Position numbers and translations under genes: made by a program. A DNA stretch of 13,080 nt. Origin: a virus (Duplodnaviria > Heunggongvirae > Uroviricota > Caudoviricetes). Under the pieces are notes generated by a model. It saw nothing but the letters and a program-made list of their open reading frames with translations, searched no databases and was not told the DNA's origin. The stretch lies in IMG/VR virus record IMGVR_UViG_2690316318_000016; one strand, 5' to 3'. Below, one piece after another: positions 1-13,080 of this stretch (the stretch's first letter is position 1; every line of letters begins with the position of its first letter).

Positions 1-249
1 ATGCGCACACAGGTTGTATTGCAAAAATGGGGTAATAGCATTGCCCTTCGACTAACGGGAAACCTTAAAACCGTTCCGGGTTTTTCAGTGGGTGATATCG
101 TCAACGTTGAAATTAGTGAAAAGGGGCTTTTTGTAGAAAAGCCTGCACGCCGTCGCCTGAGTGAAGCCGAATTACTCGCCGGGATAACGCCAGTTACAGC
201 GCACGCGGACGAAATTGCCACCCCATTCAATGAGGAGGTTGATTACTGA
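1..249 (+). CDS. MazE/PemI-family antitoxin (AbrB/SpoVT-type DNA-binding domain), 82 aa
   Basis: ORF MRTQVVLQKWGNSIALRL... has the WGNS motif and size typical of MazE/ChpS/PemI antitoxins. Its stop overlaps the start of the downstream toxin gene (TGATG, 247-251). The ORF begins at the window edge, so no promoter is visible. Confidence 0.8.
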   Translation: MRTQVVLQKWGNSIALRLTGNLKTVPGFSVGDIVNVEISEKGLFVEKPARRRLSEAELLAGITPVTAHADEIATPFNEEVDY

Positions 250-593
250 TGTTTGTACCTAAGCGTGGTGATATTTGCTGGCTGGATTTTGAGCCGCAGA
301 AAGGAAAAGAGATCGGAAAGTATCGCCCGGCACTCATACTATCCCATGAGCAATATAACCGACTCACCGGGCTTGTCATATGCTGCCCCATAAGTACGAG
401 CATACGAAATGCTCCCACAGAAGTTCCGGTAACAAATCTGGACGCCCCCAGCGTGGTAGCAACCACTCTCATTCAAACCCTTGACTGGCGTCAGCGGAAA
501 GCGCGCTTAATCACAGAGGCAGAAGATGGGGTATTTAATGATGTGCTTGAAAGAGTCATTACCCTGATTGGTGGAGAGCATCTGCTTAAGTAA
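249..593 (+). CDS. MazF/PemK-family endoribonuclease toxin, 114 aa
   Basis: ORF MFVPKRGDICWLDFEPQKGKEIGKYRPALILS... resembles the MazF/ChpB/PemK N-terminus (RGD..W.DF.P..G.E....RPA..LS). Size and position directly after the antitoxin with a 1-nt stop/start overlap fit a type II TA pair. Confidence 0.85.
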   Translation: MFVPKRGDICWLDFEPQKGKEIGKYRPALILSHEQYNRLTGLVICCPISTSIRNAPTEVPVTNLDAPSVVATTLIQTLDWRQRKARLITEAEDGVFNDVLERVITLIGGEHLLK

Positions 594-636: not shown

Positions 637-1908
637 CTATTCTTTCCAGTCAATCCCATCCAGTAAGCACCCTGCCTCATATTTCCCCACCACCCAGTCA
701 AGGTTACAGGACTCATAGAACGCGAGGCGATTATACTGAGGCTCGTTTTTTACCAGGCCACGAACGGAACCACGCTGCCAGTACAGACACAGATTGGCAA
801 GAGGTGTGATCAATACAGCATTGTCCGGGAAAAATGGAACGGTTACAGCCGGGAGATTCCCCAGAACGGGATTTTTAATGATTTCCTCGTTAAGCAAAAT
901 TTCCTGATTCATCTGCGATGGATCAAGACGGTTTATCAAAGGCCATTGTTTACGGACCAGCGTATTGTGACTGCATACGGCCACAATGCCTTCCTGCCAC
1001 TGTTCATCAATCATGGATTGCCAGGCATCCAGAACGAGCGCATCTATCGTATGGTGTGTACCGCGTGTATTACTTTTCGGTGATGAAACAGAAAGGCCGC
1101 TGATAACCCTTCCCGCCGCTTCATTTCGAAACTTCTGCAACCAGCCCACGCCACAATCGTCACGCCCCGGATATGTTTTAGGGTCAGATTTGGCGGCATA
1201 ATGTGTGCCGTTAAAACCAATCTGAATTAAATCCAGCCATTTCCGGCGTTCAAAAGCGGCCCGCGCACTTCCTTCAAGGCCGTTTGCGGATGCGTGAGCA
1301 TCGGCATTGTCGTAGTTCAACGCAAAATCAAAATTAACCTGCTCGCAGCGGTAGCCCCTTGAAACCAGTGAATGCGCCTGTAGTGGCGAACGGCGCTCGT
1401 GAGGTGGCGATGTACGTGCCAACGGCCCCGAAGCGTCTACCAGCACAACCCGACCTGATATATCCGTAACAGGCACGGGAGTTATTTCAGCAAGGAAATT
1501 TGCCTGCCATCCACTGGCAAGCGTTGCACTCTGGCGAGGAACGGGTTCAACTTCTGACGAATAGCGCGCAGTGTCACCGGAAAAGTGCAAATCCTTCGGA
1601 TGTTTTCCGGTTATCGACTCGATAGCGCAATTGAAAACCATCTGAGCCTGTTGATTTCGTTGTGATACAACAGAATCAGCAGTGCAATTATAACGCTCAA
1701 TGCCGTCGTTATTACCCCCACCGCTTGCAGTATGCAGGGTGTGAAGCTCAAGCTCACGCTCCAGTTTTTGATATTCATTGTCCAGCGCGCGACGCGTCTC
1801 ATCGCTTATGCTTGCTGTGTTTGCTTTCAGGCGATTCCGGGACATTAATCCCCTGAGTCGGCTCACTATATCAGCGCCGTGCAAATGTGGAGTATTCAGA
1901 CCGCCCAT
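637..1908 (-). CDS. Hypothetical protein, 423 aa (start at Met48 of the 470-aa track ORF), unknown function
   Basis: Long open frame in GC-rich DNA. The ATG at 1906-1908 overlaps the TAA of the upstream 236-aa ORF (TAATG), suggesting translational coupling. No Walker A or other motif recognised. The track ORF's first 47 codons (1909-2049) overlap the upstream gene in another frame and are probably not translated. Confidence 0.6.
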   Translation of the reverse strand: MGGLNTPHLHGADIVSRLRGLMSRNRLKANTASISDETRRALDNEYQKLERELELHTLHTASGGGNNDGIERYNCTADSVVSQRNQQAQMVFNCAIESITGKHPKDLHFSGDTARYSSEVEPVPRQSATLASGWQANFLAEITPVPVTDISGRVVLVDASGPLARTSPPHERRSPLQAHSLVSRGYRCEQVNFDFALNYDNADAHASANGLEGSARAAFERRKWLDLIQIGFNGTHYAAKSDPKTYPGRDDCGVGWLQKFRNEAAGRVISGLSVSSPKSNTRGTHHTIDALVLDAWQSMIDEQWQEGIVAVCSHNTLVRKQWPLINRLDPSQMNQEILLNEEIIKNPVLGNLPAVTVPFFPDNAVLITPLANLCLYWQRGSVRGLVKNEPQYNRLAFYESCNLDWVVGKYEAGCLLDGIDWKE

Positions 1909-2618
1909 TACTGCCACCCCCGGCAGAGTTCTCTGCCCTCCGCAAGGTCGCGCATTTTTTCTGGATTCTGTCGCGCCGCGCTCCATTGTACAGGTGAAGG
2001 GGCGTTCCTGATTGCGCGGCTTACCGAATCCGGGAGTTTCTCCGGGCAATAACGCAGCGGGCTGGAGGTGTCGCTTTCGGTATCGTTAATCCGGCCGCGA
2101 ATCATCCCGACACTTTCAGCAGTATCTGTCGCTTTCAGTGTTTCGCATATTTTCTTTTCTGCGTTATACAGCGGCTGGCCAAGCAGCTCACATAAACCAC
2201 GAATCAATAACAGAGCAGGGGTCAGCTCGTTAATCAGTTCGGGAAGTGCTTTTGCAAATATCTCTGCCCGCAACTTATTATCAATGCTTTCGTAAGCACA
2301 ACCAGCCTCTGCCGCGTTATAACGACACTCCAGTAGCCTGATGCGCGCCTCATCATGCAGCACCCGCAGACGCTCAAGATTTTCTCGCGCCACACCCGCC
2401 TGAATGGATAATTTCGCGGAGGCTTCCGTTTTTACGCCCAGCGCAGACAGGATTGAGTTCTGCCAGTCACGATCGAGAGATTCCAGCTCCCCTTTCGTCT
2501 GTTCGATAGTTGCTTCCAGATTGGTGATTAATGATTCCTGTTCACTGAGTTTTGCCATGGCTGTATCAAACTGTGCTTTACATACCTGATGTTCGGCGCT
2601 TGCCTGAGTTATATCCAT
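1908..2618 (-). CDS. Hypothetical coiled-coil protein, 236 aa; possibly a Psu/Sid-like capsid-associated protein (weak, by context only)
   Basis: ORF MDITQASAEHQVCKAQFDTAMAKLSEQESLITNLEATIEQTKGELESL... is rich in E/L/A/K with a heptad-like pattern. It sits in a late-gene-like region near an Ogr/Delta-type activator. The Psu resemblance is from memory and unverified. The last ~45 residues are low-complexity, so a frameshift near 2050 cannot be excluded. Confidence 0.55.
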   Translation of the reverse strand: MDITQASAEHQVCKAQFDTAMAKLSEQESLITNLEATIEQTKGELESLDRDWQNSILSALGVKTEASAKLSIQAGVARENLERLRVLHDEARIRLLECRYNAAEAGCAYESIDNKLRAEIFAKALPELINELTPALLLIRGLCELLGQPLYNAEKKICETLKATDTAESVGMIRGRINDTESDTSSPLRYCPEKLPDSVSRAIRNAPSPVQWSAARQNPEKMRDLAEGRELCRGWQ

Positions 2619-4437: not shown

Positions 4438-5439
4438 TTACTCTGCAGGCTCTTTTTGTCCGGTAAATACCATGTCGGCTACCGGGTTAAATCTCATGGC
4501 ATCTGCCAGATAGTCGGGAGAAAAATGCGCATAAGTCATCGTTTGCTGAATAGTGGCATGTCCCAGAATCCGTTGCAGGGTAACGATGTTTCCCCCGTTC
4601 ATCATGAAATGCGTGGCGAACGTATGACGCATCACATGAGTCGCCTGCCCTTTTGGCAAATCAGGCTTCACCTCCTGGAGGATCTCGCGAAACCGGAGAT
4701 AATCGACCTCGTACAGCGGCCCGGTTCGGCGGGTTTTAATCAGCGAGAGCACGGCATCAGACACCGGAACCGAACGGGACTTCCCGTTCTTGGTGTTGAA
4801 GAACGTCACGCGATTACCGACGATATGCTCTCCGCATAATTCCGCCGCCTCACCCCACCGCGCCCCCGTAGAAAGACACAGAATGGCGACACGACGCGCA
4901 TCACCTTCGAGTCGTTCAAGAAGCCGCTCAATCTCATCATCAGAAAGAAAGGCCATCTCTGTATTCTGAATTTTTAGCTTACGTATATTGCGCACGGGGT
5001 TCGGGTTGTGAAAGCTCCCTGCTTCAATCAACACCGTGAACATGGTAGACAGAACGCATAAATCACGATTAATACTGGACGGCATTAATCCGGCCTGTAA
5101 TTTCTCTGACCGATATTCAAGCATAAATTTTCGCGTCATCTGACTGGCGCGAGGATCTCTCATTTCACGAATCACTTTCTCCAGCCGGATCCTGTAGGTA
5201 TCGCCGTAAGCCTGATTGCGCCCGTCAAGCATCCACCATGTATCAAGCAACTCTGATAATCGCCGCCGATCAGCAGGTTTAGCCAGCCATGGGTTATTAT
5301 GGAAATTCTGCAAAACATATTGTTCGAACTTCTCTGCACTTCCTTTCCGGGCAAAAATTTTACGTATCCGTTTGCCGTATGCCCCTTGCGGCCTGATATC
5401 TAGCAACCATCTTCCATCATCCATCTTTCTGATCGACAT
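4438..5439 (-). CDS. int: Tyrosine recombinase, P2-type integrase family, about 333 aa
   Basis: C-terminal catalytic region LPKGQATHVMRHTFATHFMMNGGNIVTLQRILGHATIQQTMTYAHF (HxxR, GH and catalytic Y) and box I STGARWGEAAEL closely resemble P2 Int as recalled. Start chosen at the ATG at 5437-5439 (MSIRK...) because an AAGGAGA ribosome-binding site precedes it and it lies 2 nt after the primase stop; the track start at 5475 overlaps the primase. Confidence 0.9.
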   Translation of the reverse strand: MSIRKMDDGRWLLDIRPQGAYGKRIRKIFARKGSAEKFEQYVLQNFHNNPWLAKPADRRRLSELLDTWWMLDGRNQAYGDTYRIRLEKVIREMRDPRASQMTRKFMLEYRSEKLQAGLMPSSINRDLCVLSTMFTVLIEAGSFHNPNPVRNIRKLKIQNTEMAFLSDDEIERLLERLEGDARRVAILCLSTGARWGEAAELCGEHIVGNRVTFFNTKNGKSRSVPVSDAVLSLIKTRRTGPLYEVDYLRFREILQEVKPDLPKGQATHVMRHTFATHFMMNGGNIVTLQRILGHATIQQTMTYAHFSPDYLADAMRFNPVADMVFTGQKEPAE

Positions 5440-5441
5440 AC

Positions 5442-8111
5442 TTAAGGTCTCTCCTTGTAACTGAATATCCGGCATTTCAGCACTTCCGGCTCTCTGGCTT
5501 CGGCTACCCCTTTTCCGGCGTTTGCCTGTCTGGACACCTCACTACGAATTGTTTTACGACCTGTCAACGGTCGGGAGCGTCCAGCCCCGAGCAACTCAAT
5601 CATTTCGCGATCGGTTCGGATCTCCACGCGGTGAATGGCGGCTGCCTGTGCCAGTTGCGGAATACTGATAGCAATCCCTTCGCGGCATCCCTTGCCGTAG
5701 TGGTTTACACCGTATTTTGTTATGCCGTCCAGGAAGTCGAACGCCTCCCAGAATTCCACCACTTCCGGTAAATCAGCCGCCGCCGCTTTAACCTGCGCTG
5801 TTGCCATTTGTTCCAGTTCCAGACATGTGGCATCAAGCCATTCATCCGGGATATCGATAACGCATTTCAGCGCCCTGACCAGCGCGATAATTTGCGCGTG
5901 ATTTTTGGCGATACGGGGATGGCGAATATTTTCGCAGCCGCAAAGGCGTTCCGTTTCAGCTGGCGACACTTCCAGGAACGTTTGCATAATCGCCCGTTCC
6001 TGACTTACCGCCCGATGAATAAACCCCGATACCTTCTCGACGGGGTAGAGTTCCAGCCGTCTTGCCGCCAGTCGGGTATCAGGTGAATGGCGTTTTTTGT
6101 CGGTGTAGATGCGTATCAGGCGCTCAATAATTGCCGGAGAGGCGTTTACCCGCGCATTCTGCGCAATCACGATAGCGCCCTTAAAATCCGGGTCATAGGT
6201 GTTGTTATTGTTGGCTTTAACACCACGAACGCCGATACCACCGCCGTTATAGAGACTTTTCAGGTTATCGAAGTCAAACGCACCTCTTTTTTGCGCATTG
6301 TCTCCCCGGTCCGCTTCAATCAGAACAACAGGTAATCCGGCGACCTGTCCAAAGGTGCGCTTCCAGCCCGCCTCTGATCCTTTGGTTGGATCAACGCCTT
6401 CATAGTTGTCACGACCGCACAACCGCCAGCAAAAATCAATCAATGTTGATTTACCCGTTCCGGGTTCCCCGGTGACTTCAAGGAAGGGGAAGGATTCTTC
6501 TTTATCCCGGATTTGTTCGCTGAACAGGGAGCCCAACCAGAAAGCCAGGGTAATAATTCCCTTTTCACCAAAAGCCAGCCAGAGATCTTCCACCCAGGAC
6601 TCTGTAAACTCATCCGTTTTTTTGTAGTTAATCTGTAATGTGGGTTTTTCGCTTAATGGTTTTGCGTTTATGCCATCAATTTCAAAATAATCCTCATCAT
6701 TGATTTCATAAGTTTTACCCTTGTAAACGGCAATATCATTAAACAGCCATGCCCCAATTCCCTTGTTGTATCCGATAAAATCCTGACCAATAACCTCTTT
6801 TATTGCGGGAAGGTCATTTTTTATTAATGCGTCAAGCTGCGTAGTCGTTCCGGTATAAATACCACCTTTTGCCACGTGCAGCAGGCGTTTTTTAAATTCA
6901 GATGAGGATGTTAATTGTCCTGATGTAAAGGTGTTTTTCACCGTAGCACCATCCGGGAATGTAACGCGGAAGTAATACCATGCTTCATCCGTGTCATTGT
7001 TTCGAATGTAATAAAGCGGCACTGGGTTACAGTTTGCGATTTCTTTTACAGCGCCGGATTCCTTAAGTGCAATTTTTCGCGCTTCATCTTCGTCAACACT
7101 TCGCTCATTAATGACACGTTCAACAGCCTTCATATAGCGCTCAATATCCAGCTTGAACCAGAAAACACGGTTATCAAAGGTAAAATAAAACTCCTTCCGC
7201 TCACGAAAGGAAAATATTATCAGCGCCTTATCTCTCGGCGATTTCGCCAGCAATAAATCACCGTAATAACGGTATCTTTTCACATCATGGCCACGCAGCT
7301 TTCCGGCGATGTGTAAATCATTCCAGTCGCGTTTATTGTTGTTTTTACCTGGCAACGCCGCTGCCGTTCTCCAGCCGTCTTCGGCGCTGCGTTCTGCATG
7401 TTTTTTCGCGTAACGTTCACCCGCACGCCCGTTATCCAGGGCCCACACAATAACCGGACGGGGATTATCCCCGCACAGCTTCGCCAGCTCTTCCAGCGCC
7501 TTATCAGGGTAGTTCACGGCAGACATGACAGAAACGGCCGCAATGCCATTCTGGTTAAGGCTGATGGCATCAAAGATGCCCTCACAAATCCAGATTTCTT
7601 TGGCCTTGCTTAAATCTGCTCCCGGATAAGCCCACCACAACCCCTTGTAGCTGCCGGAAAAATTCGCCTTGCGCGCGAAGCGTCCCGGTCGGTCTATGAT
7701 GCGCTCCCACCACACGCCGTCAGCCAGCGTAAAACGCACAGTAGCGGCCTGTTCGCCGCTTTCCTTGTCCTGGTATCGCTCCTGAGTAAATGCGCCCTTC
7801 AGTGGCCCCACAGCAATATTGCGCGCTTCCTGAAGATAAGCTGCCGCCGCTGCATATGGCTCATCTTTCGTGCTGATATAACGATCTGACCATGATGAAA
7901 ACACATCCGGGTAAAGTTCTTTGGTCAGCAGGTCTGTACCGCATTTATTTTCGCGCCCACAGTGTACGATGTACGGCTTCTCAAGACTGGTAAACAGTTC
8001 TTTCTTTCCACATTGCGGACAAACACCATAGCGAAGATAGTTATTTTCTTCTTTAAAGTTGTAATCACGGATAAGACGGTTAATAATCTCTTTTCTGGTG
8101 TTATTTTTCAT
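5442..8111 (-). CDS. P4 alpha-like DNA primase/helicase (zinc ribbon + TOPRIM-type primase + P-loop NTPase), about 889 aa
   Basis: N-terminal zinc-binding motif CPQCGKK...HCGRENKCG; TOPRIM-like WICEGIFDAISL; Walker A TGEPGTGKST and Walker B VVLIEAD. Start placed at the ATG at 8109-8111 (MKNNTRK...); the track's GTG start at 8132 would translate the poly-C tract. Confidence 0.9.
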   Translation of the reverse strand: MKNNTRKEIINRLIRDYNFKEENNYLRYGVCPQCGKKELFTSLEKPYIVHCGRENKCGTDLLTKELYPDVFSSWSDRYISTKDEPYAAAAAYLQEARNIAVGPLKGAFTQERYQDKESGEQAATVRFTLADGVWWERIIDRPGRFARKANFSGSYKGLWWAYPGADLSKAKEIWICEGIFDAISLNQNGIAAVSVMSAVNYPDKALEELAKLCGDNPRPVIVWALDNGRAGERYAKKHAERSAEDGWRTAAALPGKNNNKRDWNDLHIAGKLRGHDVKRYRYYGDLLLAKSPRDKALIIFSFRERKEFYFTFDNRVFWFKLDIERYMKAVERVINERSVDEDEARKIALKESGAVKEIANCNPVPLYYIRNNDTDEAWYYFRVTFPDGATVKNTFTSGQLTSSSEFKKRLLHVAKGGIYTGTTTQLDALIKNDLPAIKEVIGQDFIGYNKGIGAWLFNDIAVYKGKTYEINDEDYFEIDGINAKPLSEKPTLQINYKKTDEFTESWVEDLWLAFGEKGIITLAFWLGSLFSEQIRDKEESFPFLEVTGEPGTGKSTLIDFCWRLCGRDNYEGVDPTKGSEAGWKRTFGQVAGLPVVLIEADRGDNAQKRGAFDFDNLKSLYNGGGIGVRGVKANNNNTYDPDFKGAIVIAQNARVNASPAIIERLIRIYTDKKRHSPDTRLAARRLELYPVEKVSGFIHRAVSQERAIMQTFLEVSPAETERLCGCENIRHPRIAKNHAQIIALVRALKCVIDIPDEWLDATCLELEQMATAQVKAAAADLPEVVEFWEAFDFLDGITKYGVNHYGKGCREGIAISIPQLAQAAAIHRVEIRTDREMIELLGAGRSRPLTGRKTIRSEVSRQANAGKGVAEAREPEVLKCRIFSYKERP

Positions 8112-8936: not shown

Positions 8937-9119
8937 TTACCCCTCCATGATTTTTACTGCGCATTTGTGGGTTAATCGCCCCTGTTTGTCATTGCGGGAA
9001 TATGCCATACGACAGGCATCACGCCATGCATCGTCATAAGTCGGATATTCCCAGGAATGAATCATCTGGCGAACGTCGCCGTTCTGGTAGTTAATCAGGG
9101 TGATAAGGAGCTTAAACAT
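8937..9119 (-). CDS. Hypothetical small protein, 60 aa (MFKLLITLINYQNGD...)
   Basis: Start at the ATG at 9119 with a GGGAGG ribosome-binding site; overlaps the upstream ORF's end by 8 nt (ATGTTTAA). Confidence 0.55.
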   Translation of the reverse strand: MFKLLITLINYQNGDVRQMIHSWEYPTYDDAWRDACRMAYSRNDKQGRLTHKCAVKIMEG

Positions 9120-9285
9120 GGCACGCCTCCCGGACACGGATACGGGCAACAAAGACCAGACGGGATGCCGGAAGCATGGCGCGCGCTTCGCGCTCACTGG
9201 CTGCGGTAACGGTATGAAGGCGAATATTTTTACCGTGGCACTGCATAAAGCGCCAGATAAAATCAGGGCGTGTTGATATAGCCAT
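9112..9285 (-). CDS. Hypothetical small protein, 57 aa (MAISTRPDFIWRFMQCHGKNIRLH...)
   Basis: Internal ATG at 9285 preceded by a GGAG ribosome-binding site. The 175-aa track ORF extends to 9639, but its N-terminal part looks non-protein-like and would cover the leader and promoter region. Confidence 0.45.
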   Translation of the reverse strand: MAISTRPDFIWRFMQCHGKNIRLHTVTAASEREARAMLPASRLVFVARIRVREACHV

Positions 9286-9643
9286 TTTGGCGGCTCCTCT
9301 AACTGATTTACGGAGTCTCGCCAGCACGCTGCTAAACATGGTGGCGGGACGTAACAGGGTTAGCAGACTGGCGTTAGAGAAACCAGCGAGCGCAAAGGCT
9401 CCCCCATTACGCCCCGCCATAATACGGGGTAGGGTGGAATTACGGGCACAAAAAAACCGCATTACGGAAATATAGCGGCTACCCGCTCTAACAATCAGGC
9501 TGCTAAACCCGGCACCTGTTTTATGAGGTGCGGGCAAACGATACGCCATGACAAAAAAGCGAGTCAAGAAAAATTGCAAATTATTTTGGCGATATTGCGC
9601 TGAGTTATTGATTTTTAAGAGTAAAAAAGTCATAATCATTTCT

Positions 9644-9833: not shown

Positions 9834-10154
9834 TTATTCAACTCTGGCGCTACCGGATTCCCTCTCCCTTTTCTTTTTGGCGTTTTCGTATGGGTTATTC
9901 ACTTTGGCAATAACTGGCGGATTACGTAGCCACCACAAAACATCACTTAACAGCCAGGTACATGAGCAACGCCCCAAAGAGTGACGGGGAGGAAAAGCAC
10001 CGATCTTCTCCAGTTCCCAGCGCCGGGAGCGTGAAAGCGTGGTCATTTTTTTACACTTCTCTTCCCTGATGCGTTCTTCGCAGTCAAAACCATACTCGGC
10101 GAGTATGGTGCGGCGCTGTTCTGGAGTTGGTGGAATGAATGCGGATTGAGTCAT
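9834..10154 (-). CDS. alpA: AlpA-family phage transcriptional regulator (HTH), 106 aa
   Basis: Core TTLSRSRRWELEKIGAFPP...LGRCSCTWLLSDVLWWL matches the AlpA/prophage CP4-57 regulator pattern. GGGGGA ribosome-binding site upstream of the ATG at 10154. The N-terminal ~35 residues are an extension relative to 70-aa AlpA. Confidence 0.8.
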   Translation of the reverse strand: MTQSAFIPPTPEQRRTILAEYGFDCEERIREEKCKKMTTLSRSRRWELEKIGAFPPRHSLGRCSCTWLLSDVLWWLRNPPVIAKVNNPYENAKKKRERESGSARVE

Positions 10155-10249
10155 ATTTCCCCCTATGTTTCTGAACTTTCGGGGGAGATTTTTGTTTTAC
10201 GGGGTTTTGAAAGCAAGTATTAAAGGTCTTATTAAGATGCTTGCTGGTC

Positions 10250-11302
10250 TTACTGAGATGATGCCTTAATCCATCTTGATATAGTACTTTTATCAAAGCG
10301 CATATTGAGTCCTGCCTCTTTTGCTTCCGCGGTCAATATATCAGCAAGTTTTACCGGATTGTTTTCGAGTTCTTTATAATGAATAACAAGCATCGCACGA
10401 AAAAAATCCTTCATTGTTTTAGATAATCGTTCTATATTGTTTTTATTGGTGCATATATCTTTCTCTCCATCCTCAGAGCTTAATATATTGTTACCCGCAC
10501 ACAAATATAAAGTGTCTGCCAATGGATTAACATAATCTTTTCTTAACTCGCTATTGAAGCTTGTAGCATTTTGTATTTTTAAAAAATCACTCTTTAAGAT
10601 ATATAAATCACCAATATCAAAAGAAACATCCTCAGTAACAATTACTCCTATATGTATATCAACGTCAGAAGCAATTATAATATTGCTATTAATTATTCGG
10701 TTGGCTTTAAACTTCTTATTAAAATCATAGTTGGCAAAAAAACTTCTCCCCAAAGCGAAAATGCCGCCTATTTCAACAAAATACTTATGGTATTTTTCTT
10801 GAATACCTTTAAATACTGGTGGTACAACTGCCACAGCTCTTTCATCCGTTGCTATTCGATATACACTATATATGTGATAATTTTCCCCATAATATAACCC
10901 CCTGTTATAATAATTTAACAAAGCAAATGCAGTATCAATTGCTATGTCACCAAATTTGGGCGCTACATATGAATGACTTAGAGATTCGCACATTGAATCA
11001 AATATAATTCTCGACTTGGTTTTTATATAATTAAAACCATGGTGTTCTGCCGCCCTTTCTGAAATGGCATCAAGGTCAGATAACCGTGATTTACATGGTT
11101 CTGAATCCAGAAACTTACGCAGACAATCGAAATTAACCACATCTTTTTCATCTGGGATATTTAATACTCCATATGCAGATTCAATTTTTATACAAATACG
11201 AATGCAGCCTGTCACAGCCCAATGAATAAGATCATCAATATCGCAATCTAATAACTTTGCCGCGCGCTCAATAGGATAGTAATCTCTTAGTGGTAACGTC
11301 AT
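10250..11302 (-). CDS. Hypothetical protein, 350 aa, strongly AT-rich orphan gene in the integrase-alpA cargo slot; possible HTH-like segments at both termini
   Basis: Single uninterrupted ORF in DNA visibly far more AT-rich than the rest of the element; it starts 17 bp after the integrase stop. N-terminal PIERAAKLLDCDIDDLIHWAVTGCI and C-terminal FDKSTISRWIK resemble HTH segments; the central ~250 aa has no recognisable motif. Confidence 0.7.
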   Translation of the reverse strand: MTLPLRDYYPIERAAKLLDCDIDDLIHWAVTGCIRICIKIESAYGVLNIPDEKDVVNFDCLRKFLDSEPCKSRLSDLDAISERAAEHHGFNYIKTKSRIIFDSMCESLSHSYVAPKFGDIAIDTAFALLNYYNRGLYYGENYHIYSVYRIATDERAVAVVPPVFKGIQEKYHKYFVEIGGIFALGRSFFANYDFNKKFKANRIINSNIIIASDVDIHIGVIVTEDVSFDIGDLYILKSDFLKIQNATSFNSELRKDYVNPLADTLYLCAGNNILSSEDGEKDICTNKNNIERLSKTMKDFFRAMLVIHYKELENNPVKLADILTAEAKEAGLNMRFDKSTISRWIKASSQ

Positions 11303-11318
11303 TCTTTTCGCTCACATA

Positions 11319-12518
11319 TTATTTATCTTTAACCATTTTTTCTAAACATTCAAGCCAGTCATTTAGAGCCTTTAATTTGAATGGGATATACTGGCTAAGA
11401 TTATAGTTAAATTCTGCGGAGCCAGCATTATATACGTGACCTAATAATGACTCGACAATATGAGGCATTACCCCCATGTTGTTTAACCCAGTTGAAAATG
11501 TCCGTCTTAAATCGTGTAGCGTCCATTTTTCATTATGTCCGAATATTTTATACATTCTGCGACCTTTCAGAGAAACAGCTCTATGCGTTCTCTCCTCACC
11601 CAAAAGTAAGCCCGTCCTCCCGGTTTCCTGTTTTAGCTCTTTTAACCAGTCTCTTATACCTTCGGGAATTGGCCGAATAATCTTTTTGTTACTTTTACTG
11701 TTATTTCTTGGAACAATCCAAACCCATTCATTAAAATCCCATTCAATCCAATGAGAACGGCGAATCTCTACAGTTCTAGCCCCAAAGACAATAAGCAACT
11801 TTATTAATCTAGAAAAATAAATATCCCGATGTTTCTCCTTTGCAAAATACCAAAGATCTGATAGTTCGGCATCACTCAAAACACGGTCGCGCTGTCCGGC
11901 AGATTCCCCTACATCGGTTAACGTTAAATGAACAAGGGCATCACTGATGGCATAACGCCGAACATTGCAAAACCGCAATGCCTGTTTGGAGAGTTGAAAC
12001 ATACGCCCCGCCGTTTTTGAACTTATAGCGCGAATCTCATCAAAACATTTTACCCAATGGCGAGTATCGCACCGTGATAACGGATAATGGCCTATTCTGG
12101 GGTAGACATGTTTGCAGAATTGCGCCCTAATCAATTCCTCATCTTTGCGCTTATGTCTTGCATAATTGACCAACCAATATTCCAACGCATCTCGAACAGT
12201 AACAGGAGCACGGGATTCTTCAGTAAAAAGTTGGAGTTCAATTTTTGGATCAAGACCATTAGCCAACCATTGACGGCAACGCTCACGCCACATCCTGGCA
12301 TCTTTCAGACTAATATCAGGGTAATTCCCTAGAGTAAGACGAATAACTGAACTCTCACGCCCTCCAAGGCGATATGAAAAAACCCAGCTCACATGCCCTT
12401 TAGTTGATAACCTGACCCCTAACCCCTCTCCGTCAGCAAGCATTTCAACACGATCCCTATGCGTTCCTTGCAGCGCCTTTAGTTTCCTGTCGCTGAGCTT
12501 ATTCGTTCCAGACATCAT
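11319..12518 (-). CDS. int: P4-type tyrosine integrase (DUF4102-like N-terminal arm-binding domain + phage integrase catalytic domain), about 399 aa
   Basis: N-terminus KLSDRKLKALQG...GEGLGVRLSTKGHVSWVFSYRLGGRE...LTLGNYPDISLKDAR matches the P4 integrase-family N-terminal domain. C-terminus HDLRRTFSTGL...LLGHV carries the HxxR and GH motifs. Start placed at the ATG at 12516-12518 (the track start is GTG at 12521). Confidence 0.9.
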   Translation of the reverse strand: MMSGTNKLSDRKLKALQGTHRDRVEMLADGEGLGVRLSTKGHVSWVFSYRLGGRESSVIRLTLGNYPDISLKDARMWRERCRQWLANGLDPKIELQLFTEESRAPVTVRDALEYWLVNYARHKRKDEELIRAQFCKHVYPRIGHYPLSRCDTRHWVKCFDEIRAISSKTAGRMFQLSKQALRFCNVRRYAISDALVHLTLTDVGESAGQRDRVLSDAELSDLWYFAKEKHRDIYFSRLIKLLIVFGARTVEIRRSHWIEWDFNEWVWIVPRNNSKSNKKIIRPIPEGIRDWLKELKQETGRTGLLLGEERTHRAVSLKGRRMYKIFGHNEKWTLHDLRRTFSTGLNNMGVMPHIVESLLGHVYNAGSAEFNYNLSQYIPFKLKALNDWLECLEKMVKDK

Positions 12519-12530
12519 CACCGTTCCGAT

Positions 12531-12553
12531 ATTGATACACGCATTGATACACG
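12531..12553. repeat. Tandem direct repeat ATTGATACACG x2 (12-bp period) immediately upstream of the P4-type integrase start
   Basis: Read directly: ATTGATACACGcATTGATACACGt, 13-35 nt upstream of the integrase ATG; candidate operator or arm-type site. Confidence 0.35.
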
Positions 12554-12864
12554 TGAAATATTAATATCCAGAAAAAATGAAATCGAGCATGAACACAAAA
12601 TCACTACAACATAATGATTTTGATTGATTTTTTATATTCAGCGGGTAAACACTAGAAAAGTCAGGAACATAAAAAACATTACTTCTACAGTATGTTTCAT
12701 ATCTCTAACCATATGATTTAAAAACAAATCACTTCGCACGGGCGGGTTTCGGCACCGCAACAAAGCGCAAGACATGCAGTATACCAGCAAAACTATTCAT
12801 AAGCGGAATCCGTTAATAAAGTTCAATTTGTGAAAAGAAACGCATTGGTTCGCCGCAGGACAGC

Positions 12865-13080
12865 ATGCCGTTCCCGATGCCCGTTCCGGTACCGTTCAAT
12901 ATGGGAATGCCGATGCTGGGCGGGCCGATCTCTACTGCGGGTAATGTGCTGTTTATCGCCGCTACAGCAGATAACTACCTGCGCGCTTACAACATGAGCA
13001 ACGGTGAAAAACTGTGGCAGGCGCGTTTACCCGCAAGGGGCCAGACAACGTGCGCTTTGTTCATGCCGGATGCGGCGTGA
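12865..13080 (+). pseudogene. Orphan fragment resembling the C-terminal beta-propeller region of a PQQ-dependent (quinoprotein) dehydrogenase such as Gcd; truncated and running into a REP element
   Basis: Translation ...PFPMPVPVPFNMGMPMLGGPISTAGNVLFIAATADNYLRAYNMSNGEKLWQARLPA... matches the C-terminal region of E. coli-type glucose dehydrogenase as recalled, then diverges into REP-derived codons and stops at 13078-13080. The frame is open only from 12820, so at most about 85 codons are present. Identity is from memory, not a search. Confidence 0.45.
13063..13080. repeat. Start of a REP (repetitive extragenic palindrome) element, GCCGGATGCGGCGTGA, cut by the window end
   Basis: Matches the 5' part of the classic enterobacterial REP consensus GCCGGATGCGGCGTGAACGCCTTATCCGGCCTAC. 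Confidence 0.5.

What the first reader, a model, noticed from the sequence alone, without database searches (positions are those of the whole stretch)
10250..11302. AT-rich 350-aa orphan gene in the integrase-alpA cargo slot: candidate undescribed single-gene system
In P4-type-integrase/AlpA/primase elements (CP4-57-like islands, Gram-negative PICIs, P4-like satellites) the slot next to the integrase is a known site of variable cargo, often anti-phage defence or regulatory genes. Here it holds one 350-aa ORF whose DNA is visibly far more AT-rich than the replication and late modules, suggesting recent acquisition. The protein has HTH-like segments at both ends (PIERAAKLLDCDIDDLIHWAVTGCI; FDKSTISRWIK) around a central ~250-aa region I cannot assign to any family. 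It could be a defence or abortive-infection effector, or a satellite master repressor analogous to SaPI Stl.
Basis: partly seen in the sequence, partly recalled or inferred. Interest (0 to 1): 0.78.

Follow-up and report, generated by a model that had tools for sequence, protein, structure and literature searches.

The report
Satellite regulator gene upstream of alpA
The AT-rich 350-aa gene is not random cargo but a member of an undescribed, fast-evolving family of two-HTH proteins that always sits between the integrase and alpA of phage satellites and travels with a pair of palindromic DNA sites in front of the alpA promoter, so it is most likely the switch that decides when the satellite wakes up.

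Summary
The ORF (10250-11302, minus, 350 aa) is real, intact in about 30 E. coli genomes, under purifying selection and clearly AT-rich (33.5% GC against 42-50% in its neighbours). It matches no Pfam, NCBIfam, PHROG or PADLOC model, but it is not an orphan: a profile search finds 254 representative clusters. In every context with enough sequence it lies int - X - alpA in P4-like or PICI-like satellites. Low GC is a family trait, not a sign of recent acquisition. Between near-identical islands the gene is replaced as a cassette (10194-11247) by homologues only 26-29% identical. The cassette carries two CTWANTWAG-type palindromes 21 bp apart. They end 71-74 nt before the alpA ATG in most enterobacterial alleles examined, 10 bp upstream of a weak, position-conserved promoter. 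An AlphaFold model (pLDDT 82) shows an N-terminal Xis/MerR-type winged HTH, a central alpha/beta region with no recognisable fold match, a disordered linker and a C-terminal three-helix bundle. My best reading is a helper-sensing DNA-binding regulator of alpA. Whether it activates or represses is unresolved; the site geometry favours activation. The closest described thing is the uncharacterised iolg/icg gene of Vibrio PICMI satellites, a positional analogue with no detectable homology.

The parts
10250..11302 (-). Gene X: a 350-aa protein of an undescribed family (int-contiguous gene).
   Evidence: ORF. It is intact in 30 of 5426 complete E. coli genomes at >=90% nt identity. pN/pS is 0.15-0.7, against 0-0.12 for int and 0 for alpA. 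A profile search finds 254 representative clusters. No curated family matches.
11153..11302 (-). N-terminal winged helix-turn-helix (residues 1-50), the most conserved part of the family (M-x-LPLR-[DE]-[YF]-YP...RAA-LL-C..DD...WA).
10526..11152 (-). Central helical plus beta-rich region (residues 51-259), highly divergent between alleles; the candidate sensor or oligomerisation region.
10433..10525 (-). Low-confidence linker (residues 260-290).
   Evidence: pLDDT is 33-40. Length and sequence vary in the alignments.
10253..10432 (-). C-terminal three-helix bundle (residues 291-350) ending in ...FDKSTISRWIK, an HTH-like domain. Some relatives carry an alternative, unrelated C-terminal module.
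   Evidence: H295-308, H316-329 and H338-349, pLDDT 83-90. Type-2 C-termini occur in P0007, P0015-17, P0019, P0033, P0036 and P0038.
10194..11247 (.). Replaceable cassette: X from codon 19 to the stop, plus 56 nt downstream that include both palindromes.
   Evidence: blastn of the window against islands at the same hpt-gcd site: flanks are 88-96% identical up to 10193 and from 11248 (11208 in L004 and L005), with no nucleotide match in between. The proteins are only 26-29% identical.
10248..10258 (-). Site O1, TCTCAGTAAGA, an imperfect palindrome that overlaps the X stop codon.
   Evidence: It lies 21 bp from O2. The pair scores p=0.0005 against 2000 shuffles.
10227..10237 (-). Site O2, TCTTAATAAGA, a perfect 5+1+5 palindrome. 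It ends 72 nt before the alpA ATG and 10 nt before the predicted -35.
   Evidence: It is the only exact CTWANTWAG in the 13-kb window. The double-site pattern occurs once in each of 10 related loci, always in this spacer, and nowhere else in the 53 loci.
10188..10216 (-). Predicted weak alpA promoter: -35 TTGCTT (10216-10211), 17-nt spacer, -10 AAAAAT (10193-10188).
   Evidence: It is the best or joint-best -35/-10 candidate at the same position (-35 at ATG-61 to -64, -10 ending at ATG-32 to -34) in 11 of 12 allelic loci, although the spacer sequence is unrelated. It scores only 7-8 of 12 and fell below the threshold of the generic scan. It is inferred, not mapped.
10158..10188 (-). alpA leader hairpin in which TCTCCCCC pairs with the Shine-Dalgarno GGGGGA.
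   Evidence: The MFE fold sequesters the SD in almost all alpA leaders examined, including K-12 CP4-57. In a 10-sequence alignment 86.7% of cells are paired and 3 of 6 pairs show compensatory changes; 2 of 500 shuffles reach the observed percentage paired (likewise cells changed on both sides and covariation score), though not the pair-count measures (82 and 280 of 500). Slid controls give 50-65%.
9834..10154 (-). alpA (106 aa), the presumed target of regulation. It belongs to a subfamily with an N-terminal extension (F-x-PPTPEQRR..L.EYGF).
   Evidence: PF05930 at 3.3e-07. X-associated AlpA proteins are aligned. AlpA is the master activator or excision factor in Gram-negative PICIs and PICMIs (PMC6092414, PMC10803314).
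11319..12521 (-). P4-type tyrosine integrase. X starts 17 nt after its stop, so the two are probably co-transcribed.
   Evidence: int lies immediately upstream of X in all loci with enough sequence. In L029 X overlaps int by 8 nt.

Best explanation
Gene X encodes a modular, sequence-specific DNA-binding regulator dedicated to the alpA promoter of this P4-like/PICI-like satellite.

Shown here:
- It is a conserved core gene of the int - X - alpA module.
- It carries a Xis/MerR-type winged HTH at the N-terminus and a three-helix HTH-like bundle at the C-terminus.
- It is inherited as one cassette with two CTWANTWAG-type palindromes 21 bp (two helical turns) apart, which sit at a fixed distance from alpA.

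Inferred:
- X is made constitutively with Int from the int promoter, since only 17 nt separate the two genes.
- X dimers occupy the two palindromes, centred at about -52 and -73 of a weak alpA promoter.
- The fast-evolving central domain senses a helper-phage product. Its state decides whether alpA is transcribed from its own promoter.
- Transcripts from that promoter would start at or after the anti-SD segment and so be translatable. Read-through int-X transcripts carry the anti-SD hairpin and are not.
- AlpA then auto-activates and drives excision and replication.

I favour X as a sensor-activator, because the sites lie upstream of the -35 and the core promoter is weak. An Stl-like anti-repression mechanism is the main alternative for the sign of regulation.
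For: Synteny: int - X - alpA holds in 40 of the 44 loci with an X hit. Of the other four, two are cut short and two (L015, L030) have no alpA ORF detected downstream. The loci come from E. coli, Salmonella, Erwinia, Klebsiella, Rheinheimera, Atlantibacter and metagenomes.

Real gene: it is intact in 30 genomes with pN/pS 0.15-0.7.

Structure: the confident model has HTH-type domains at both ends, and the N-terminal domain resembles MerR, Xis and AlpA folds.

Cassette: breakpoints fall at 10193/10194 and 11247/11248.

Palindrome pair: it scores p<=0.012 against shuffles in 13 of 20 dereplicated loci. O2 ends 71-74 nt from the alpA ATG in 10 of them. Three further alleles chosen afterwards all showed the same architecture. 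The strict double-site pattern is found only in this spacer across 53 loci.

The sites follow X, not AlpA: the AlpA protein is identical (WP_000194274.1) in the window-type, L002 and L004 islands, yet their sites are TCTTAATAAGA versus GCTAAATTAGC.

Modularity: between the window and L006 the C-terminal domain and sites are shared (dS 0.057) while the centre has dS>1.1.

Promoter geometry.

Literature: no global repressor is known for Gram-negative PICIs, and how the helper induces alpA is unknown (PMC6092414). In PICMI115 the gene at this position is needed for helper-induced excision and is expressed with int (PMC10803314).
Against: - No binding, expression or phenotype data exist for this family.
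- The binder of the palindromes is inferred from linkage only. Because the sites lie inside the cassette, co-variation with X could be simple hitch-hiking.
- AlpA is known to activate its own promoter, so the sites could be AlpA sites that tolerate the CTTA/CTAA difference.
- In five alleles the two sites also form a strong RNA hairpin (-17 kcal/mol, z -3.5 to -6.2). This is not so in the window allele (-3.6 kcal/mol, z 0.4).
- Which HTH binds is unclear. A simple code relating the C-terminal recognition helix to the half-site failed an out-of-sample test (L052).
- Distant relatives (L028, L029, L038-L044) lack the tandem pattern.
- The promoter is a weak consensus match, not a mapped start site.
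- The prototype EcCICFT073 has alpA directly after int, so this regulator is not universal.
Confidence: 0.5

Rival explanations
1. X is an Stl-like master repressor. It keeps alpA, and hence the island, silent by binding O1/O2, and it is released when a helper-phage protein binds its variable central domain.
For: X sits next to int, has HTH domains, is hypervariable between otherwise near-identical islands and has a modular centre. Regulator and sites swap together as in an immunity region. Tandem sites 21 bp apart suggest cooperative binding. Stl biology is summarised in PMC6092414.
Against: The sites lie 10 bp upstream of the predicted -35, not over the core promoter or start site. The gene is co-directional with alpA, not divergent. 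The core promoter is already weak. In PICMI115, deleting the gene at this position abolishes induction instead of causing it (PMC10803314), although that gene is not detectably homologous. Many alleles share the same CTTAnTAAG core, so heteroimmunity would be limited.
Confidence: 0.22
2. X is an accessory recombination factor, either a large recombination directionality factor or a partner of Int and AlpA in the excisive complex. This is what was proposed for IOLG in PICMIs. It is not a transcription regulator.
For: The N-terminal domain has the excisionase-type winged-HTH fold. The gene abuts int, or overlaps it by 8 nt in L029. PICMI115 iolg is required for excision and was proposed to join the excision complex (PMC10803314).
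Against: The conserved sites are more than 2 kb from the int-proximal junction and sit at a fixed distance from the alpA promoter, not near att. RDFs are usually 50-100 aa and bind direct repeats. No homology to two PICMI IOLGs was found. A hypervariable 200-aa centre has no obvious role in an excision complex.
Confidence: 0.13
3. X is an anti-phage or interference effector, or some other accessory function, that merely occupies the 5' accessory region. Under this reading the O1-O2 element is something else: AlpA auto-activation sites, or an RNA stem-loop that ends or stabilises the int-X transcript.
For: PICIs are reported to carry immune systems at their 5' and 3' ends (PMC11364771). The gene is AT-rich and fast evolving. 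The O1-O2 segment folds strongly as RNA in five alleles. AlpA activates its own promoter (PMC6092414).
Against: There is no PADLOC hit and no conserved catalytic motif. The same family occupies the same position in every element examined, which is unlike defence cargo turnover. Each arm of the repeat is itself palindromic in most alleles, which a hairpin does not require. The window allele and L052 do not form a strong hairpin, and no U-tract follows the stem. AlpA is identical in islands with different site types.
Confidence: 0.12

Closest known systems
iolg / icg (integrase-overlapping or integrase-contiguous gene) of Vibrionaceae PICMI satellites (PMC10803314)
   Same: It is a gene of unknown function wedged between int and alpA, overlapping or abutting int. 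It is extremely diverse (13 families among 35 PICMI subfamilies) and expressed with int. In PICMI115 it is required for helper-induced excision and transfer.
   Different: No detectable sequence or profile similarity to two PICMI IOLGs retrieved here (196 and 225 aa; hhalign probability below 1%). X is larger (350 aa) and has HTH domains at both ends. The cognate palindromes were not seen in the two PICMI spacers. The relationship is positional and perhaps functional; homology is not shown.
SaPI Stl / Gram-positive PICI Rpr master repressors
   Same: These are satellite-encoded, int-proximal, highly divergent HTH regulators. Their variable parts bind helper-phage proteins and so couple satellite induction to helper infection.
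   Different: Stl is transcribed divergently from the genes it controls and binds the divergent promoter region. X is co-directional with alpA and its sites lie upstream of the -35. There is no sequence similarity, and X has a winged HTH of the Xis/MerR type. The sign of regulation is unknown.
Lambdoid immunity regions (repressor plus cognate operators exchanged as a module)
   Same: A regulator and its tandem palindromic sites are replaced together by recombination in conserved flanks, which creates allelic specificity classes.
   Different: Only three site variants on one theme (CTWA-N-TWAG) were seen. The sites do not overlap the core promoter. No divergent promoter pair or second regulator is present.
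MerR / excisionase (Xis, TorI, AlpA) winged-HTH superfamily
   Different: No Pfam MerR, HTH_17 or Phage_AlpA match and no profile similarity to the neighbouring AlpA. The remaining 300 residues have no counterpart in those families.

Membership tests
PICMI iolg/icg | The gene lies between int and alpA, overlapping or contiguous with the 3' end of int, on the same strand. | tested here: met
   There is a 17-nt gap after the int stop in the window. Gaps of 3-27 nt, or an 8-nt overlap, occur in relatives.
PICMI iolg/icg | Sequence homology to a described IOLG/ICG family. | tested here: not met
   hhalign of the X profile against IOLGs from two fis-linked PICMIs (L046, L049) gives probability 0.6% and 0.2%. 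Only 2 of the 13 families could be tested.
PICMI iolg/icg | Required for helper-induced excision and transfer. | not testable with these tools
   Needs deletion and complementation in an island-bearing strain with its helper phage.
SaPI Stl / PICI Rpr master repressor | HTH DNA-binding regulator encoded next to int. | tested here: met
SaPI Stl / PICI Rpr master repressor | Divergent transcription from the regulated operon, with operators in the divergent promoter region. | tested here: not met
   int, X, alpA and the downstream genes are all on the minus strand. The sites lie upstream of the predicted -35 of alpA.
SaPI Stl / PICI Rpr master repressor | Repression relieved by direct binding of a helper-phage protein. 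| not testable with these tools
   Needs reporter assays and interaction assays with helper proteins.
Known anti-phage defence systems (PADLOC-DB v2) | Match to a model of a known or candidate defence protein. | tested here: not met
   0 families at E<=1. DefenseFinder was not available.
MerR / Xis / AlpA winged-HTH superfamily (N-terminal domain only) | beta-alpha-alpha-beta-beta winged-HTH fold. | tested here: inconclusive
MerR / Xis / AlpA winged-HTH superfamily (N-terminal domain only) | Sequence-profile match (PF13411, PF12728 or PF05930). | tested here: not met
   No Pfam hit at E<=10 for the isolated N-terminal 59 residues of two members. hhalign against the AlpA alignment gives probability 0.2%.
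Immunity-type regulator/operator cassette | The regulator gene and its repeated palindromic sites are exchanged together between otherwise near-identical elements. | tested here: met
   Breakpoints enclose both. Site types differ between cassettes while AlpA is identical.
Immunity-type regulator/operator cassette | The protein binds those sites. | not testable with these tools
   Needs EMSA, footprinting or ChIP.

The most novel reading that the evidence does not exclude
X is the missing helper-phage sensor of a large group of Gram-negative satellites. It would be a constitutively made two-HTH protein whose hypervariable central domain, of a fold not matched in PDB or BFVD, binds a helper-phage product and then directly switches on the alpA promoter from two upstream palindromes. 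Arms-race evolution of the sensor domain would explain the allelic cassettes. The same logic could explain the enigmatic, non-homologous iolg/icg genes of PICMIs.
Probability: 0.3. Interest if true: 0.8.

Novelty: new variant of a known kind. Interest (0 to 1): 0.62.

Why it matters
How helper phages switch on alpA is stated as an open question for both Gram-negative PICIs (PMC6092414) and PICMIs (PMC10803314), and no master regulator upstream of AlpA is known. This work defines a protein family absent from the four curated libraries searched. It gives the family a confident structural model and a specific pair of candidate binding sites at a fixed place before the alpA promoter. It also provides natural allelic series in which the ends, the centre and the sites recombine independently. 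That turns the question into simple experiments: gel shifts, PalpA reporters, allele swaps and pull-downs with helper proteins. If the central domain is a phage sensor, its diversity would also map satellite-helper specificity.

Tried and rejected
- AF2 with only 4 sequences gave pLDDT 32 and was discarded. The 24-sequence alignment was needed.
- The afdb50 fold library was unavailable, so the central domain was compared only with PDB and BFVD.
- Homology to K-12 YfjH, the gene between intA and alpA in CP4-57 on the opposite strand: none.
- Homology of the N-terminal domain to the neighbouring AlpA: none.
- Homology to PICMI IOLG: none for the two examples.
- Pfam on isolated domains: nothing.
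- tblastn against 50,697 phage records: no match. In plasmids only N-terminal matches appeared, one of them again followed by alpA.
- Recognition code: I proposed that R versus N in the C-terminal recognition helix (T-I-S-R-W versus T-I-T-N-W) dictates CTTA versus CTAA half-sites. The out-of-sample allele L052 (SNW with CTTAATAAG) contradicts it, so I dropped it. Type-2 C-terminal variants keep the sites, which points instead to the N-terminal wHTH as a possible binder.
- A third near-copy of the site inside X (10714-10724) lies in very AT-rich DNA. I treat it as chance.
- Extra operator copies near the int promoter: none found.
- RNAalifold on 17 diverse alpA leaders failed because of misalignment. 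A 10-sequence subset was used instead.
- The genome-contig scan returned only 6 loci. A viral-contig scan for PICMI AlpA returned none.

Full report
OBSERVATION. The window holds a 350-aa ATG-initiated ORF at 10250-11302 on the minus strand. It begins 17 nt after the stop of a P4-type integrase (11319-12521; Arm-DNA-bind_3 plus Phage_integrase). It ends 95 nt before an AlpA-family gene (9834-10154; PF05930). The compositional break is real. In 400-nt windows, GC falls to 0.29-0.35 over the ORF against about 0.44-0.56 in most of the element. The ORF is 0.335 GC, int 0.421 and alpA 0.498. The protein hits nothing in Pfam, PADLOC, PHROGs or NCBIfam, whether as a whole, as isolated domains or through 23 relatives.

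SETTING. The window is an island of about 12.5 kb inserted between hpt and gcd of E. coli. It carries the following, all on one strand:
- a MazEF-like toxin-antitoxin pair;
- a P2-family capsid gene with a long N-terminal extension, and a Psu-like coiled-coil gene;
- an Ogr/Delta zinc-finger gene;
- a second, XerC-like recombinase;
- a toprim primase of 896 aa;
- an Icd-like gene preceded by C4-type antisense RNA elements;
- alpA, X and int.

The order int - (X) - alpA - regulatory zone - primase - late genes matches the general Gram-negative PICI layout described in PMC10111431. It does not match the canonical P4 order given in PMC8628076.

NOT AN ORPHAN, NOT CARGO. The word-indexed search found only three clusters. 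An exhaustive profile search of 1.84 billion representatives found 254 proteins at E<=1e-3 and 22 at E<=1e-30. About 25 of these are full length; many others match at the N- and C-termini only. I examined genomic context from E. coli, Salmonella-type gcd islands, Erwinia, a Klebsiella plasmid, Atlantibacter, Rheinheimera, IMG/VR contigs and metagenomes. An HMM scan of all fetched loci found alpA immediately downstream of X in 40 of the 44 loci with an X hit. Of the other four, two are cut short (L023, L036/37) and two (L015, L030) have no alpA ORF detected. int lay upstream wherever sequence allowed. X is therefore a position-conserved core gene of an int - X - alpA module. Almost every allele checked is AT-rich, 0.32-0.37 GC against flanks of 0.42-0.51. 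Low GC is thus a property of the family rather than a mark of recent arrival.

REAL AND FAST EVOLVING. The window's allele is intact in 30 of 5426 complete E. coli genomes. Among six copies, pN/pS is 0.15-0.7 for X, 0-0.12 for int and 0 for alpA. That is purifying selection, but several-fold weaker than on the neighbours.

ALLELIC CASSETTE. Other E. coli strains carry the same island at the same site with flanks 88-96% identical. Between window positions 10194 and 11247, however, there is no nucleotide similarity. The gene there is a homologue only 26-29% identical. The breakpoints lie at codon 18 of X and 56 nt past its stop. The gene is also mosaic internally. Against the L006 allele, the C-terminal domain is nearly identical (dS 0.057), the N-terminal domain has dS 0.48, and the centre has dS>1.1 with 50% aa identity.

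STRUCTURE. With 24 sequences, AlphaFold2 gives mean pLDDT 82 and pTM 0.68. The model has five parts:
- residues 1-50: strand, two helices and a beta-hairpin wing;
- residues 59-134: helical;
- residues 136-250: mixed beta/alpha, containing the only conserved central motif (L233, K237, D239, F240);
- residues 260-290: disordered;
- residues 295-349: three helices ending in FDKSTISRWIK.

THE KEY FINDING: COGNATE SITES.

Site types. The 56 nt carried with the cassette hold two 11-bp sites 21 bp apart. In the window these are TCTCAGTAAGA (10258-10248, over the stop codon) and the perfect palindrome TCTTAATAAGA (10237-10227). Other alleles have GCTAAATTAGC/GCTAATTTAGC, GCTTAATAAGC/GCTTATTAAGC or TCTAAAGATTAGA/TTTAATCATTAGA. 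All fit CTWA-N-TWAG.

Statistics and position. In 13 of 20 dereplicated loci the best palindrome pair beats shuffles at p<=0.012, and six loci reach the floor of 0.0005. In ten loci the second site ends 71-74 nt before the alpA ATG.

Out-of-sample test. Three further alleles fetched afterwards as a test all showed the same arrangement, with the second site ending 71-72 nt before the ATG.

Specificity. The strict pattern CTWANTWAG-N12-CTWANTWAG occurs exactly once in each of ten loci, always in this spacer, and nowhere else in 53 loci. In the window, the looser pattern is found only here plus one near-copy inside X. That is 6 strand matches against 0.94 expected, and no shuffle of 200 reached 6.

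Linkage. AlpA is the identical protein (WP_000194274.1) in islands with TCTTA-type and GCTAA-type sites. The sites therefore follow the X cassette, not AlpA.

PROMOTER GEOMETRY (INFERRED). Ten bp after the second site lies TTGnnn. After a further 16-18 bp comes (A/C)AAAAT, which ends 32-34 nt before the ATG. This is the best or joint-best -35/-10 candidate at the same position in 11 of 12 allelic loci, although the spacer sequences are unrelated. It scores only 7-8 of 12. A weak promoter fits AlpA's known positive autoregulation (PMC6092414). The sites would then be centred near -52 and -73, upstream of the -35. That geometry is more typical of activators than of repressors.

The -10 abuts a leader hairpin in which a pyrimidine run pairs with the alpA Shine-Dalgarno sequence. 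This hairpin recurs with compensatory changes across alpA leaders, including K-12 CP4-57. In a 10-sequence alignment 86.7% of cells are paired, 3 of 6 pairs show compensatory changes, and 2 of 500 shuffles reach the observed percentage paired. A start about 7 nt after the -10 would fall at the end of the anti-SD. Transcripts from the alpA promoter would then be translatable, while read-through int-X transcripts would not. This last step is inference only.

INTERPRETATION. The simplest account is that X is a DNA-binding regulator of alpA. It would be made with Int, bind the two palindromes as dimers, and carry a variable centre that senses a helper-phage cue.

On the sign of regulation, three points favour activation:
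- the upstream position of the sites;
- the weak core promoter;
- the phenotype of the positional analogue in PICMI115, where deleting iolg abolishes helper-induced excision and int/iolg are expressed constitutively (PMC10803314).

Favouring repression are the analogy to Stl and the immunity-like cassette.

Which HTH binds is open. The sites persist in variants with the alternative C-terminus (L014, L016), which points to the conserved N-terminal wHTH. My proposed recognition code for the C-terminal helix failed on L052.

CAVEATS AND RIVALS.
1. The sites could be AlpA auto-activation sites that tolerate CTTA versus CTAA.
2. In five alleles the site pair also forms a strong RNA hairpin (-17 kcal/mol, z -3.5 to -6.2). 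In the window allele it does not (-3.6 kcal/mol, z 0.4), nor in L052. No U-tract follows, and self-palindromy of each arm is not expected for a plain hairpin.
3. X could instead be an excision cofactor, given its Xis-like N-terminus. However, its sites are more than 2 kb from att and are locked to the alpA promoter.
4. A defence role has no positive evidence.
5. Distant relatives (L028, L029, L038-L044) have other inverted repeats or none.
6. [quoted passage not shown]

COMPARISON WITH WHAT IS KNOWN. The closest described entity is the iolg/icg gene of PICMIs. It has the same position, is expressed with int, is very diverse (13 families), has unknown function and is needed for induction. Two PICMI IOLGs that I retrieved through their AlpA show no similarity to X, so this is analogy, not membership. 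X resembles Stl in role but not in layout or sequence. It resembles lambdoid immunity modules in the joint exchange of regulator and sites. No paper in the library mentions the RefSeq accessions of these proteins.

VERDICT. The gene is a member of an undescribed family that most likely acts as the regulatory switch upstream of alpA, which makes it a new variant of the satellite master-regulator theme. Concrete binding sites and natural allele series make it directly testable.

Noticed in passing
window 10158-10188 (minus strand); also L002-L053 and L024 (K-12 CP4-57 alpA): The alpA leader has a hairpin in which an upstream pyrimidine run (TCTCCCCC) pairs with the Shine-Dalgarno sequence (GGGGGA). 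The hairpin recurs with compensatory changes in nearly all alpA leaders examined, including elements without X. No Rfam family matched it. It may block AlpA translation from read-through transcripts.
   Followed up: partly
window 9337-9424 (-), 9450-9531 (-), 9492-9544 (-): Rfam finds a C4 antisense RNA (RF01695, 72.9 bits), isrK (RF01394, 52.2 bits) and a sub-threshold c4-a1b1 target match. They lie just downstream of alpA and overlap the annotated Icd-like ORF (9112-9639). This is a P1/P7-type RNA immunity module inside the satellite.
   Followed up: no
window 12800-13080: The right end differs from the closest complete genome (L001). About 2.1 kb of the 5' part of gcd is missing, and a gcd 3' fragment (…MPFPMPVPVPFNMGMPMLGGPISTAGNVLF…) is joined about 330 nt from the int start. 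The reading frame also departs from Gcd near the window end. This is a deletion next to the island in the source strain.
   Followed up: partly
window 4438-5475 (-): A second tyrosine recombinase (345 aa; Int_N PF24624 plus Phage_integrase; XerC/XerD-like) sits immediately downstream of the primase and overlaps its end. A similar gene follows the primase in L012. Its role in a satellite that already has a P4-type integrase is unexplained.
   Followed up: no
window 637-2049 (-) and 1908-2618 (-): A P2-family major capsid gene is called as a 470-aa ORF, of which only residues 179-466 match the capsid profile. RefSeq aa. It is preceded by a 236-aa coiled-coil protein with a weak Psu-like PHROG hit. 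Related islands carry the capsid gene right after alpA. A satellite that encodes its own P2-type capsid protein is unusual for P4-like elements.
   Followed up: no
window 12531-12553: A perfect tandem repeat, ATTGATACACG x2 at 12-nt spacing, lies immediately upstream of the int start codon. It could be an integrase arm-type or regulatory site.
   Followed up: no
window 9834-10154 and alignment A4: AlpA proteins that follow X share a conserved N-terminal extension of about 25 aa (F-x-PPTPEQRR-x-IL-x-EYGF). The extension is absent from K-12 AlpA and from the short AlpA of L018 and the PICMIs. It might be a contact surface for X or Int.
   Followed up: no
window 1-593 (+): An AbrB/MazE-type antitoxin and a PemK/MazF-type toxin pair sit at the far (hpt-side) end of the island. 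In the circular form this places them between the late genes and att.
   Followed up: no
L015 (Klebsiella pneumoniae record NZ_CP129740.1, 86818-87639): A 273-aa relative of X (N-terminal match) stands alone among housekeeping genes (fadL, mlaA, cynR) with no integrase or alpA nearby. It may be a remnant or a domesticated copy.
   Followed up: no
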